From an uncultured Chloroflexia bacterium (GTDB lineage Bacteria; Chloroflexota; Chloroflexia; QHBQ01; JADMIH01): a stretch of 64,000 nt of DNA. The stretch lies in the NCBI GenBank assembly GCA_963797095.1, contig CAWCNY010000006.1, forward strand, positions 996,374-1,060,373, written 5' to 3'. Shown piece after piece: positions 5,192-8,612 of the stretch; positions within the stretch are counted from its first letter, which is position 1; every line of letters begins with the position of its first letter. The notes beneath the pieces were generated by a model. That model saw nothing but the letters and a program-made list of their open reading frames with translations. It was not told the DNA's origin and did not search any database. The translations under genes were made by a program, and so were the position numbers.

Positions 5192-6604
5192 TATAGGTGC
5201 TCCTTGGGTGTTCTGGTGAATTATAGCAGTTATGTAGGAGCATGGACCATTCAAACAGTTGTTTGAATGAGGTCTGTACCTTGAGGAAGCGTGTGTATCC
5301 CGGTAAGCTGAAGGCGCAAGCTGTATAATTGGCCCGAAAACATACGGCTTTCAGAGAGTTCACACTGTGCAAAGTAACTCAACCTCGTTCTCAGGAGAAC
5401 CGACGCCTTACTCCCGCGTCCATCTAGTGATCTTTGCCTGCATTCTGGTTGTCTATGCTATTACCATTAGCGTTTACAACCTGAGCATCCCGGTAGGCGA
5501 AGCACCTGATGAGGTGGCGCATATTGAGAATGTACAGGTGATCTTGCGTAGTGGCGAATTACCGACGATACCTCTCGATTCACCGCGTTATTCCTACGAA
5601 GCCGAACAGCCACCTTTGTACTATTTGTTTGAGGCTGGTTGGATCGGATTACTCTGGCCTGGTCTTGCCTTCCATGGGTCTGGTTGCCTTCCTCCCAGGA
5701 TTCGGGTTTACTTCTGCTACAGTAAATAATGATGCGCTTGCAGCTACCGGAGGTGCAGCGGTCGTGTTCATGTGTGTATATACTCCGGAAGGGTGTAAAC
5801 AGCAGGGTGGCACTGTCGACAGGCATGGTATTGGGGCTGGGTCTGTTGGCAAAGCATTCTTTGTTGGTGCTGGCGCCCCTTGTGATGGCTCTGCCGTTTT
5901 TCCTACTTATGAGTAAGTGGCCGGAAAGACGCTCAAGAACAAGAGAAGCAATATTGATGTCGGCTATGGTGCTACTGGGGACGGTGGTTGTAGGGGTGTG
6001 GCCGTTTGCCAGTGATTTTGTTGAGTATGGCGACCCATTTGCAAGCGCTGCAACGGCGGCAGTCAAGAATGAGATCGCTTCACCATTGCAAGGGAAGCCG
6101 GGGTTCTGGCTTTCACCGGGGTATTTCATCGGGCTGTACAACTCGTTCTGGGGCACATTCGGCATTCGCAATATTGACCTACCGAATCTGCTTTACGCTG
6201 GATACTATGTGTTGTTCTTGTTATCGGTGATAAGTCTGGTGTTGAACCGTAAGAAGGTACTGCGACAGGAGCGCGGCACCATATGGGTCTGCCTGGCGGT
6301 GCTGCTGTTGGTGAATATAGGAGTAGGGTACCAGAATACCCAGTTTTGGGCCGTACAAGGCAGACTTCTGTTACCTGCGGCAGCCGCGTTAGCTTTACTC
6401 ATTGGAAGGGGCTTCGTCTTGATAGGCGGGCGTATTCTACCTGAAGGCCGTTCTCGGTACTACGCGCTAGTACTAGTTTGTGGTGCGAAATGCGGTCGCA
6501 AGGCCCGGAGCAGCACGTGACACTGCCATCAAGACTGATATTTCGCACCATCGTGTTTCTGGGTGTCGTAGGTTGGCACTTGGCACATCGCCACCTAATC
6601 TGGT

Positions 6605-8241
6605 TCACGCCGCTTGCTTCCTCACCGCTATCCCAGCCCTGGTCCTGGCTCCGACCCTGGCTCCAGCCCTGCGTTGTGCTGCCCGTGCTATCTGTGTATC
6701 AGCGATCTTCCCCAGGTTCGCTGTCACAATACCCCACCCTACCCTTCGCCACATCCCCTCCTCCTCGTGATCCCGACCTGTCTCCAGCCCGTAATCCCTC
6801 TTCAGCACCCAAATCCGCCCTTCGATCCCCGCTCGGAACCGGAACCCGCATCTGAACCAGCGCTGATGTTCCAGTGCCTGTCTCTCCTTGCTCACTCGCC
6901 CAGTGTGTGGCAACACAATCCGCTTCACCCCCAGTTGGCGTGCCAACGCCTCGTTCGCCCTCGAATAGGTGCCACGATCTCCAGCCAGCATGTCCGGTGG
7001 GTGCCCGAAACGCTCTTGATGTGTGGCTAAGCTTCTCGGCAGTTCCATCAGGTCCAAGCCCCCGCCCTCGTCCATCAATCGATACTCGCTGATGATCCCT
7101 CCCTCAACTTCCCCCAACCACACTTTGCGTCCGAATTCGGTTGGCTTGCCTGCCTTGTGACGCTGGATGACCTGGGTGTGCGGTTCAAACAGAGAGCGCA
7201 ACTTCTCGCCACTTCGAACCGCTATTAAGGATAACCCTGATACGGCTTATGATAGTTCAAACAGAGAGAGCAACTTCTCGCCACTTCGAACAGGTTCGCC
7301 CTGCAGCACTCGGCGTCGAGCCTGCTCTATCGCCTGCCCACCAGAGGCAGAAAGTGCTCCAACTGCTCGATGATGCGCCTTACCTGCCCCTGCCGTGCCC
7401 GGGTTGCAGAGTGCTCGGTAAGCTTGGCCCTGGAGAAGGTGTCGGCGAGGGTGGCGAGAGCATCGTGCACTTGATTCGCCTGCTTGGCAGTGGCCTGGGC
7501 GATACCCAGCAGCCTGGCATAGGCTGCCTTGAGTTGCTCGGCAGCCTCTTCCCCTTTGCGGCGGGCCACCCGATGAAGTTGTTGAGCGATACGCCGGACC
7601 GAGCGGGTACGGCTGCGAAATGCCCCTTTCAGGCCGCCCTTCAGGATGGTCGTCCCTATGGTCGTCCCTTCTCCCACTTCTCCCAGCTTTTCTCCCAGCA
7701 CGGTTTTGGCTTTGTGCAACAGCCGACTGAGCACACGAACTCCATCACCAACAATGGCGCTGTCTGTTGGATAATGGATATTGGTCTGCACAACGGTGCT
7801 GTCCACGCGCAGTTTGCGCCCCCTAGTCACCTTGAGTTGAGTGGCCAACTCCACTACTCGATCGTTGACCCTGGCAAGAGTATCCGGACCGACAAGGTTG
7901 GCCCATCGGATGAGAGTGGTATCGTCGGGGACGGGCTGGAGATAGAGGCGGCAGAACTGGCGTAAGACCAGGCTATCCGAGACGAAGTGTTCGGTTTGTT
8001 CGTAGCTCCAATCGTACAGGCGGCGAACGATGAGCATACGCAGGATCACCTCAACTGGGGTGGAGTGACGCCCCCTAACCAGGGTGTGAGGATAACGCTT
8101 AGCCAGGTCAGCCTTGACCTGCTCGAAGATCTCATCGTCTTTTAGCAACTGGTCCAACTCAGCTAGCTCCGGTTCCATCTCCAATTGCAACTTGGGCACC
8201 AGTTCAAAGAGGTTTACAGGGTCATATCGTTCGATTATCAC
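6605..8241 (-). pseudogene. IS5/ISNCY-family DDE transposase, inactivated
   Basis: DUF772-like N-term (GRHSTPVEVILRML, PDDTTLIRW); RVDSTVV, AGDRG, RAGIEG; 1-nt frameshift near 7340 and a 72-bp insertion with in-frame TAA. Confidence 0.88.
7183..7291. CRISPR. CRISPR-like repeat-spacer-repeat unit (37/35/37 bp) inside the transposase; no cas genes in window
   Basis: GTTCAAACAGAGAG(C/A)GCAACTTCTCGCCACTTCGAAC at 7183-7219 and 7255-7291 (1 mismatch); 35-bp spacer 7220-7254, 14/35 GC. The duplication is seen directly; CRISPR origin is inferred. Confidence 0.6.
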
Positions 8242-8612
8242 GTTATTGAGCCTCCGGTTGAGTTTTGGATCATGGGCAACTTAATCCTAACTCACCAAGG
8301 CTCATCTTGTCATTTCGCACCCCAAACTAATACTAGGCGTGTTGCTGTGCGCGCTAATTGTAGCGGATTGGTATGCGCTGATCGTGTATGTGCTTCAAGT
8401 CTATTATGGCTGACGGGTATATTTGAGGCCCTGCCCAGCCCAACTGAAAGATTGAAAGGGTCGTTTTCTTTTATAATAGTCCCATGTTTGTCGTAGCCAG
8501 CAATAAAATGAAATAAGAACAGGTTATTCGTTATCGGCACCAAACCTAGCGAAGCATAGCACCGGATGGCGAAACCCGCCGGCTATCCGGGTAGCGGAGA
8601 GGAGATACTACT

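What the first reader, a model, noticed from the sequence alone, without database searches (positions are those of the whole stretch)
7183..7291. Natural 'neo-CRISPR': apparent Cas1-Cas2 spacer integration into a transposase gene
Seen: a 37-bp direct repeat (36/37 identical) flanks a unique 35-bp segment CGCTATTAAGGATAACCCTGATACGGCTTATGATA (40% GC, well below its surroundings). The repeat is transposase coding sequence (minus strand VRSGEKL(L/R)SLFE). Deleting one repeat plus the spacer (72 bp) restores ...LQGEPVRSGEKLLSLFEPHTQVI.... It has CRISPR-repeat-like features: GTTC...GAAC inverted ends, a ...TTTGAAC end on the minus strand and a weak GAGAG/TTCTC hairpin. The spacer adds an in-frame TAA. 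Known: Cas1-Cas2 integration duplicates one full repeat length around a fixed-length spacer, and off-target integration at repeat-like sites has been shown experimentally in E. coli; IS target duplications are far shorter than 37 bp. Inferred: the host adaptation machinery mistook an IS sequence for a repeat, disrupting the transposase and seeding a mini-array inside a mobile element that could be moved in trans. If it recurs, this is a route to array birth or Cas1-mediated IS inactivation.
Basis: partly seen in the sequence, partly recalled or inferred. Interest (0 to 1): 0.9.

Follow-up and report, generated by a model that had tools for sequence, protein, structure and literature searches.

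The report
Stray CRISPR-style insertion inside a transposon
A jumping gene in a soil bacterium carries a scar shaped like a CRISPR "memory" insertion placed at the wrong address, although this bacterium no longer has any CRISPR machinery; it is a rare natural trace of such a mistake.

Summary
Window 7183-7219 and 7255-7291 are a 37-bp direct repeat (36/37) around a unique 35-bp, 40%-GC segment. The module sits in the transposase gene of a 1870-bp ISNCY-family IS (6467-8336).

Evidence that it is a derived insertion:
- 98 relatives of the IS have an uninterrupted site.
- One soil-metagenome contig (~94% identical) skips exactly these 72 bp.
- An identical module lies in a second IS copy elsewhere in the genome, so it was copied after it arose.

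Evidence pointing to Cas1-Cas2:
- CRISPR arrays of the same genus, order and class mostly have 37-nt repeats (13 of 17 arrays).
- Their spacers run 32-46 bp; 35 bp accounts for 51 of 439.
- Half of the repeat consensuses start GTT and end AAC. The duplicated 37-mer does too. Only 1.7e-4 of genome 37-mers do, it is the only such site in the IS, and 0 of 98 relatives have it there.

Evidence against or missing:
- This genome (93% complete) has no cas1, cas2, cas remnants or arrays.
- The spacer matches nothing.
- Overall identity to real repeats is modest (18/37).
- The hairpin is no better than shuffles.

Verdict: most likely (~0.7) a relic of off-target Cas1-Cas2 integration, made in an ancestor or earlier host. 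It is a new natural example of a known phenomenon ("neo-CRISPR"), not a working array.

The parts
6467..8336 (-). ISNCY-family insertion sequence (1870 bp), transposase gene on the minus strand, now a pseudogene
   Evidence: Inverted repeats. NCBIfam NF033593 matches both halves, and the intact relative L056 scores 467.5 bits against a cut-off of 325. Pfam DUF772 hits the N-terminal part. A second copy with 3 differences in 1870 nt lies at G000:C2:121534-123402.
6467..6492 (.). Left terminal inverted repeat of the IS
   Evidence: pair I1: 26 nt, 92% complementary to 8311-8336. (C)TAG lies on both sides in both copies.
8311..8336 (.). Right terminal inverted repeat of the IS
   Evidence: pair I1.
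7183..7219 (.). Copy 1 of the 37-bp duplicated target ('pseudo-repeat'); carries the derived base at position 15 (Leu to Arg codon on the minus strand)
   Evidence: The G022 relative and the X4 contig agree with copy 2 at the variable base.
7220..7254 (.). 35-bp inserted segment ('spacer'), 40% GC, origin unknown, adds an in-frame TAA on the minus strand
   Evidence: No match elsewhere in the genome beyond 13 nt or in any collection searched.
7255..7291 (.). Copy 2 of the 37-bp duplicated target; keeps the ancestral sequence (VRSGEKLLSLFE codons)
7338..7339 (.). Site of a 1-base deletion that shifts the transposase frame (a second, independent lesion)
   Evidence: Frame change between the two ORFs. 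An extra base is present in G022 and in the X4 contig ('put in behind 7338: T').
7327..8241 (-). N-terminal transposase ORF remnant (304 aa, DUF772 / ISNCY positions 2-254)
6605..7201 (-). C-terminal transposase ORF remnant (198 aa, ISNCY positions 280-443); its listed TTG start lies inside repeat copy 1

Best explanation
The 72-bp module is a relic of one full-site integration by a CRISPR Cas1-Cas2 integrase at a non-CRISPR site.

Proposed sequence of events (inferred from the established mechanism of spacer integration):
1. An integrase of the type that serves this lineage's 37-nt-repeat arrays, loaded with a 35-bp prespacer, attacked the two strands of the IS transposase gene 37 bp apart. 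Each attack was at the G that begins GTT on that strand.
2. Gap filling then duplicated the 37 bp on either side of the new 35 bp.

Consequences:
- The insert put a stop codon into the transposase. A separate 1-base deletion also breaks it.
- The broken IS was later copied to a second site, presumably by a transposase supplied in trans.
- One base has changed in one repeat copy.
- The integrase is not in the present genome, so the event happened in an ancestor that later lost CRISPR-Cas, or in an earlier host of the IS.

Shown: the structure, that it is derived, the matching geometry and termini, and the later copying.
Inferred: the enzyme, the host in which it acted, and mobilisation in trans.
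For: 1. Derived insertion.
- 99 of 111 loci span the site. Only the genome's own two copies carry the 24-codon insert; 97 relatives are uninterrupted.
- The G022 relative encodes one intact 479-aa protein.
- A ~94%-identical soil contig (X4) joins 7182 to 7255, skipping exactly 72 bp.

2. Duplication length equals the lineage's repeat length.
- 13 of 17 arrays found beside cas1 in relatives have 37-nt repeats.
- Same-genus G010, G013 and G024 also have them.
- G010 has a type I-B-like operon with cas1, cas2 and cas4 next to such an array.

3. Insert length fits. Spacers in these arrays are 32-46 bp, and 35 bp accounts for 51 of 439.

4. Termini fit.
- 5 of 10 consensus 37-nt repeats start GTT and end AAC (8 of 10 start GTT; 6 of 10 end AAC).
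- The duplicated 37-mer does too, as do only 1009 of 6,018,642 genome 37-mers (1.7e-4).
- It is the only such site in the IS.
- 0 of 98 relatives have it at the homologous place.
- The end score (8+8 nt) is 11/16, in the top 0.2% of genome 37-mers.

5. Published parallel (PMC6698737; abstract and passages read). P. furiosus Cas1-Cas2 makes full-site integrations in vitro at non-CRISPR sites. These are paired one repeat length apart, prefer G, and keep G1/T2/T3. The most-used site is only 43% identical to the repeat.

6. No other origin for the 35-mer: no partial self-match over 13 nt and no inverted-repeat symmetry. Its GC lies within the range of real spacers (9% of 477 are at or below 40%).

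7. The structure is real. It occurs in two genomic copies, and a 279-nt contig of run X1, identical to the window, spans 7222-7500. X1 may be the source sample.
Against: - No cas1, no cas2, no remnant of G010-type cas proteins and no lineage-type repeats, and no CRISPR array in this genome. It is 93% complete in 8 contigs, so absence is likely but not proven.
- Only 1 of 25 same-genus genomes has cas1. G010-type arrays were found in 4 of 25, one of them a weak match.
- The spacer has no protospacer match, so PAM and source are untested: 0 exact matches in viral, genome and metagenome contigs, phage hits at E >= 0.4 only, and none in plasmids.
- Whole-length identity to the best lineage repeat is only 18/37, top 2.1% of genome 37-mers.
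- No Rfam CRISPR-DR match. The hairpin is not significant.
- In type I-B Haloarcula, accurate duplication needs mid-repeat motifs (PMC4872114, abstract). No such shared motif was shown here.
- The GTT...AAC and end-score tests were chosen after seeing the data.
- It is a single event, selected by a reader who was looking for this shape.
Confidence: 0.7

Rival explanations
1. A break-repair scar unrelated to CRISPR. A staggered break or replication template switch in the transposase gene was repaired with fill-in of 37 nt and capture of 35 nt of filler DNA. The match to CRISPR geometry is coincidence.
For: The genome has no cas genes or arrays. The 35-mer has no identifiable source. Similarity of the whole 37-mer to real repeats is modest. 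The finding was picked because of its shape.
Against: It needs three coincidences at once:
- duplication of exactly 37 bp, the modal repeat length of the lineage;
- filler of 35 bp, within the spacer range;
- GTT...AAC borders, found in 1.7e-4 of genome 37-mers, unique in the IS and absent from 98 relatives.

No second scar of this kind exists in the 6-Mb genome. I know of no bacterial repair process that regularly gives long duplications with filler (own knowledge).
Confidence: 0.15
2. Footprint of another mobile element that makes long target duplications (some IS4-family elements such as IS1634 are recalled to give very long, variable duplications). The element was later almost wholly deleted, leaving 35 bp.
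For: Long direct repeats flanking foreign DNA are what a transposition leaves behind. ISs are frequent targets of other ISs.
Against: - The 35-mer has no terminal inverted-repeat symmetry: the longest internal inverted repeat is 4 nt, reached by 985 of 1000 shuffles.
- It has no partial match over 13 nt (E 1.6) anywhere in the genome.
- It has no match in phage, plasmid, viral, genome or metagenome collections.
- A deletion that leaves just 35 bp while keeping both 37-bp duplicates intact is contrived.
- It does not explain the GTT...AAC borders.
Confidence: 0.05
3. A working IS-borne mini-array: the repeat-spacer-repeat unit is kept because a Cas system in trans (in another strain or host) processes it into a guide, as with virus-borne mini-arrays (recalled).
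For: The module is conserved base for base in two IS copies that differ at 3 other positions. It rides on a mobile element.
Against: - There is one spacer only, and no cas genes in the genome.
- The pseudo-repeat is transposase coding sequence rather than a cognate repeat (18/37 to the best).
- No significant hairpin, no Rfam repeat match and no target found for the spacer.
- One repeat copy has already mutated.
- Three differences in 1870 nt are too few to show selection on 109 nt.
Confidence: 0.04
4. Assembly or sequencing artefact.
For: Short duplications can arise from mis-assembly of repeats.
Against: The same module lies in two copies with different flanks and 3 differences elsewhere. 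An identical 279-nt contig from run X1 crosses the spacer-repeat 2 junction (possibly the source sample, so not fully independent). The 35-mer is unique sequence, not a repeat collapse.
Confidence: 0.02

Closest known systems
'Neo-CRISPR' loci from off-target Cas1-Cas2 integration in E. coli (Nivala, Shipman & Church 2018, Nat Microbiol 3:310). The paper is not held; it is known here only through citing papers.
   Same: A spacer-sized DNA inserted outside an array, with duplication of a repeat-length target. Citing papers say such events can spawn new arrays and that there is 'circumstantial evidence' in two other species.
   Different: Those events were seen under Cas1-Cas2 over-production in the laboratory. 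Here it is a natural relic in a Chloroflexota-like soil genome, with 37+35 geometry, inside an IS, later copied with the IS, and in a genome that now lacks cas genes. Details of their natural cases could not be compared.
Non-CRISPR full-site integration sites of Pyrococcus furiosus Cas1-Cas2 in vitro (PMC6698737; abstract and passages read)
   Same: Paired attacks on opposite strands one repeat length apart, G preferred at the attack site, G1/T2/T3 conserved, low overall identity to the true repeat (43% there, 49% = 18/37 here).
   Different: 30-bp repeat system, plasmid targets, in vitro. No mid-site motif could be compared here.
Canonical CRISPR arrays of the lineage, e.g. the type I-B-like locus of same-genus genome G010
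   Same: 37-nt unit length, spacer length range, and G...C borders (GTT...AAC in half of the repeat types).
   Different: One spacer only, no leader, no adjacent cas genes. The 'repeat' is transposase coding sequence and is at most 18/37 identical to any real repeat sampled.
Ordinary IS target-site duplications
   Same: A direct repeat of target DNA around inserted DNA.
   Different: This IS itself is flanked by only (C)TAG, 3-4 bp. 37 bp is far longer, and the insert is 35 bp with no inverted ends.
Casposon integration by Cas1-solo casposases (recalled, not tested)
   Same: A Cas1-family integrase making a target duplication.
   Different: The recalled duplications are about 14-15 bp and the inserts are kilobases long. 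No cas1 homologue of any kind is in this genome.

Membership tests
Off-target Cas1-Cas2 integration product (neo-CRISPR unit) | Target duplication equal to the repeat length of a cognate system | tested here: met
   37 bp exactly. 13 of 17 arrays beside cas1 in relatives have 37-nt repeats, including same-genus G010, G013 and G024.
Off-target Cas1-Cas2 integration product (neo-CRISPR unit) | Insert length within the spacer length range of that system | tested here: met
   35 bp. The lineage's spacers are 32-46 bp, with 51 of 439 exactly 35.
Off-target Cas1-Cas2 integration product (neo-CRISPR unit) | Empty, uninterrupted site in related copies (the insertion is derived) | tested here: met
   97 relatives spanning the site are uninterrupted. 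The X4 contig skips exactly 72 bp.
Off-target Cas1-Cas2 integration product (neo-CRISPR unit) | Site borders resemble the repeat borders (G at both attack sites) | tested here: met
   GTT...AAC as in 5 of 10 lineage repeat consensuses. 1.7e-4 of genome 37-mers have it, and it is the only such site in the IS. 0 of 98 relatives have it. The test was chosen post hoc.
Off-target Cas1-Cas2 integration product (neo-CRISPR unit) | cas1-cas2 present in the same genome | tested here: not met
   No PF01867 or PF09827 match and no tblastn match to G010 Cas proteins. The genome is 93% complete. cas1 is present in 1 of 25 same-genus genomes and 24 of 60 relatives.
Off-target Cas1-Cas2 integration product (neo-CRISPR unit) | Spacer traceable to a protospacer with the system's PAM | tested here: inconclusive
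   No match in any collection. Most natural spacers have none (own knowledge).
Off-target Cas1-Cas2 integration product (neo-CRISPR unit) | Integration at this site catalysed by the enzyme | not testable with these tools
   Needs an in vitro or in vivo integration assay.
Functional CRISPR array | Cognate repeats with leader and Cas proteins that process and use the transcript | tested here: not met
   No cas genes, no Rfam CRISPR-DR match, hairpin not above shuffles, one spacer only.
ISNCY-family insertion sequence | Transposase matching the family model, terminal inverted repeats, short target duplication, multiple copies | tested here: met
   NF033593 matches both ORF remnants (237.7 and 173.8 bits), and the intact relative L056 scores 467.5 bits against a 325 cut-off. 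26-nt inverted repeats. (C)TAG on both sides. Two copies at unrelated loci.

The most novel reading that the evidence does not exclude
A proto-CRISPR unit born by a misdirected Cas1-Cas2 integration inside an insertion sequence was afterwards multiplied by transposition. That would make ISs both victims of the adaptation machinery (inactivated by it) and vehicles that spread repeat-spacer-repeat seeds to new sites and hosts, where a compatible Cas system could extend or use them. This would be a natural route to array birth and dispersal.
Probability: 0.1. Interest if true: 0.8.

Novelty: new member of a known kind. Interest (0 to 1): 0.55.

Why it matters
Off-target spacer integration is well shown in the test tube and in engineered E. 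coli. Natural traces are described in the literature I could read only as circumstantial, and the term 'neo-CRISPR' occurs in 1 paper of the searchable library.

This case is clean. The empty site is known, the duplication is exact, and the geometry and borders match the lineage's own arrays.

If accepted, it would show three things:
- Cas1-Cas2 mistakes occur and persist in nature.
- They can knock out a mobile element's transposase.
- Such scars can outlive the CRISPR-Cas system that made them, giving a marker of lost immunity or of an IS's earlier host.

It also offers a concrete substrate for testing what a 37-nt-repeat integrase reads in its target.

Tried and rejected
- Hairpin in the pseudo-repeat: not better than shuffles, so it is dropped as evidence.
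- Rfam, all families at E <= 10, on 7100-7400: no match.
- Spacer origin: no result. Exact 35-mer scans of viral contigs, genome contigs and metagenome contigs gave 0. blastn against phages gave only chance hits (best E 0.4) and none against plasmids. In the own genome nothing exceeds 13 nt.
- CRISPR arrays in G000: my k-mer scan gave 7 candidates, all simple tandem or coding repeats.
- Other neo-CRISPR-like units in G000: 6 repeat pairs of similar geometry. Two are the IS copies. C4:317641 (36+30) is an in-frame 22-codon coding tandem repeat, and the rest are coding repeats.
- cas remnants in G000: tblastn with the G010 operon gave only a weak helicase hit for Cas3 and weak hits for a flanking ORF. 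Synteny of the G010 cas flank could not be followed.
- Leader-like flank: real arrays are preceded by G-rich leader ends. The pseudo-repeat's + strand flank ends ...GGGTGTGCG. This is too weak to count.
- Spacer GC as a sign of foreign origin: 40% is low for the genome (3.5% of 35-mers) but normal for real spacers (9% of 477). It is consistent with the reading but not discriminating.
- RNA: no RNA holder listed.
- Parts of the IS without contig cover in runs X1-X4 say nothing.
- Primary neo-CRISPR paper: not held by DOI or PMC id. I relied on citing papers and on recall, marked as such.
- Supplements of PMC6698737 and others were closed and not seen. They may hold off-target site lists useful for comparison.
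- Organism name: only inferred. Relatives of the IS come from Chloroflexota MAGs; the genome itself is unnamed.
Full report
**What is there.** Window 7183-7219 and 7255-7291 are two copies of a 37-nt sequence differing at one base (36/37), 72 bp apart start to start. They enclose 35 bp found nowhere else in the region. The bases just outside the copies differ, so the duplication is exactly 37 bp and the insert exactly 35 bp. The insert has 40% GC against 58% for the surrounding element.

The module lies in a 1870-bp insertion sequence (6467-8336) with 26-nt terminal inverted repeats. Its transposase runs on the minus strand and belongs to NCBIfam's ISNCY family model NF033593. An intact relative scores 467.5 bits against a cut-off of 325, and a Pfam DUF772 domain sits at the N-terminus. 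On the minus strand the reading frame goes ...EKLLSLFELS*AVSGLSLIAVRSGEKLRSLFEPHT..., so the insert adds 24 codons including a TAA. A second lesion, a 1-base deletion after 7338, separately shifts the frame between the 304-aa N-terminal and 198-aa C-terminal remnants.

**It is a derived insertion, and it is real.**
- I collected relatives of the transposase from relatives' genomes, public metagenome contigs and public genome contigs. Of 111 loci compared, 99 have an alignment spanning the site. Only the genome's own two copies carry the extra 24 codons, and 97 relatives read straight through a conserved EK(L/I)xS(L/I)FEPHT motif.
- The nearest full-length relative in a sister genome (G022, an unpublished genome; 73% DNA identity) encodes one intact 479-aa protein without the 72 bp and without the frameshift.
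- When public runs were laid on the IS, a 180-nt soil-metagenome contig (run X4, about 94% identical) joined 7182 directly to 7255, skipping exactly 72 bp. It also carried the base that is missing after 7338.
- A 279-nt contig of run X1, identical to the window, runs from inside the spacer through repeat copy 2 (7222-7500). X1 may be the sample the genome came from, so it is weak as independent support.
- The G022 relative and the X4 contig both agree with copy 2 at the one variable base. Copy 1 has therefore changed (Leu to Arg codon) since the duplication.

**It was copied after it arose.** The genome holds a second copy of the IS on another contig (G000:C2:121534-123402). Its flanks are unrelated, (C)TAG lies on both sides as in the window copy, and it differs at only 3 of 1870 positions, none in the module. 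It has the same insert, the same frameshift and the same changed base. A transposase gene with two inactivating lesions cannot have moved itself, so the element was presumably mobilised by a transposase supplied in trans. No intact copy is in the assembly; this step is inference.

**Why Cas1-Cas2 is the best explanation.**
- The genome itself has no cas1, no cas2, no trace of a cas operon, no lineage-type repeats and no CRISPR array. It is 93% complete in 8 contigs. The lineage does have them: cas1 was found in 24 of 60 relatives searched, namely 1 of 25 in the genus, 5 of 5 and 4 of 9 in the two sister families, and most of the class.
- I fetched 20 cas1 neighbourhoods. Of 17 arrays detected, 13 have 37-nt repeats.
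- In the genus, G010 has a type I-B-like operon (Cas8b1/Cst1, Cas7, Cas5b, Cas3, Cas1, Cas2, Cas4, Csa1) next to a 23-repeat array of 37-nt units. Related arrays occur in G013, G024 and, weakly, G016, so 4 of 25 genus genomes in all.
- Spacers in the 37-nt arrays measure 32-46 bp with a mode of 36-37, and 51 of 439 are exactly 35 bp. The module therefore has the unit length and a normal spacer length of the arrays of this group.
- The borders fit too. Of 10 consensus 37-nt repeats, 8 start GTT, 6 end AAC and 5 do both. The duplicated 37-mer starts GTT and ends AAC. Only 1009 of 6,018,642 positions in the genome do (1.7e-4), and in the whole IS the only such site is this one.
- None of 98 relatives has these borders at the homologous 37-mer. 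The X4 allele has a different base at 7289.
- A cruder score (identity over the first and last 8 nt to any lineage repeat) is 11/16, in the top 0.2% of genome 37-mers. Whole-length identity is only 18/37, top 2.1%. These two tests were devised after seeing the data and should be read with that in mind.

**How this compares with published biochemistry.** In P. furiosus, Cas1 and Cas2 alone make full-site integrations in vitro at non-CRISPR plasmid sites. Those sites come as pairs on opposite strands one repeat length (30 bp) apart, strongly prefer G at the attack site, and keep G1, T2 and T3. The most-used site is only 43% identical to the repeat (PMC6698737; abstract and passages read). The present site has the same character for a 37-nt system.

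In type I-B Haloarcula, accurate duplication depends on two mid-repeat motifs (PMC4872114, abstract). I could not show a matching mid-site motif here, which is a gap.

Off-target integration into the E. coli chromosome under Cas1-Cas2 over-production, and the idea that it seeds 'neo-CRISPR' arrays, come from Nivala et al. 2018. I could not read that paper. Citing papers describe it so, and say natural evidence was circumstantial and limited to two other species.

**Rivals.**
- *Repair scar with filler DNA.* This would need three coincidences at once (37, 35 and GTT...AAC), and no second such scar exists in the genome.
- *Footprint of another element with long target duplications.* This is not supported. 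The 35-mer has no inverted-repeat symmetry, no partial match in the genome beyond 13 nt, and no match in any collection.
- *Working IS-borne mini-array.* Nothing supports this: one spacer, no cas genes, a non-cognate repeat, no significant hairpin and no Rfam repeat match.
- *Artefact.* This is unlikely given two copies with different flanks and the X1 contig.

**What remains open.** The enzyme is inferred, not shown. The host in which the event took place is unknown: either an ancestor that later lost CRISPR-Cas (cas1 is patchy in the genus) or an earlier host of the IS. The spacer's source and PAM are unknown, and its 40% GC is within the range of real spacers of the lineage (9% of 477 at or below 40%). 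The order of the two lesions is unknown.

**Verdict.** This is a new natural member of a known kind of event, made more interesting because it sits in, inactivates, and was then spread with a mobile element, and because it survives in a genome without CRISPR-Cas.

**Dependence on unpublished genomes.** The G022 alignment and the 479-aa reference rest on G022. One cas1-positive relative is G033, and one weak array match is G016. The main conclusions also stand on public loci and the X4 contig.

Noticed in passing
window 5729-6466 and 8337-8410: The IS sits inside the 3' end of a hydrophobic (membrane-like) protein gene. The ORF starting at 5729 runs into the IS at 6467, and a hydrophobic reading (VLLCALIVADWYALIVYVLQVYYG*) continues just after the IS in another frame. 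The IS therefore probably truncated this gene.
   Followed up: partly
L157 1990-2100 (G000:C4:317641-317740): A 36-nt direct repeat with 30 nt between the copies looked like a second candidate. It is an in-frame 66-bp (22-codon) tandem duplication, GEEDELVQTMRSSTY..., inside a 316-aa ORF on the minus strand.
   Followed up: yes
L002, right flank of the C2 copy (G000:C2, just outside 121534): The second IS copy abuts a run of the 7-nt unit CTACCGA repeated many times. Its nature was not examined.
   Followed up: no
L006 (G025:C28:452991-453159), L014 (G025:C28:452059-452084) and L004 (G000:C3:1136688-1136743): Short stand-alone matches (88-96% identity) to the left end of the IS only (query 2-164, 2-27 and 74-129), without the transposase. 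They are possibly solo ends or small non-autonomous derivatives.
   Followed up: no
G013 contigs C97, C105, C107-C109, C112, C114, C116, C117, C121, C216 (L159, L163): One same-genus genome has very many 37-nt-repeat array fragments (66 matches) on small contigs, although no cas1 was found in it. It is 63% complete.
   Followed up: partly
window 7201 (TTG) within repeat copy 1: The duplication places a possible TTG start (MRSLFEPHT...) at the head of the C-terminal catalytic remnant, so a 198-aa C-terminal protein could in principle be made separately. There is no evidence that it is.
   Followed up: no
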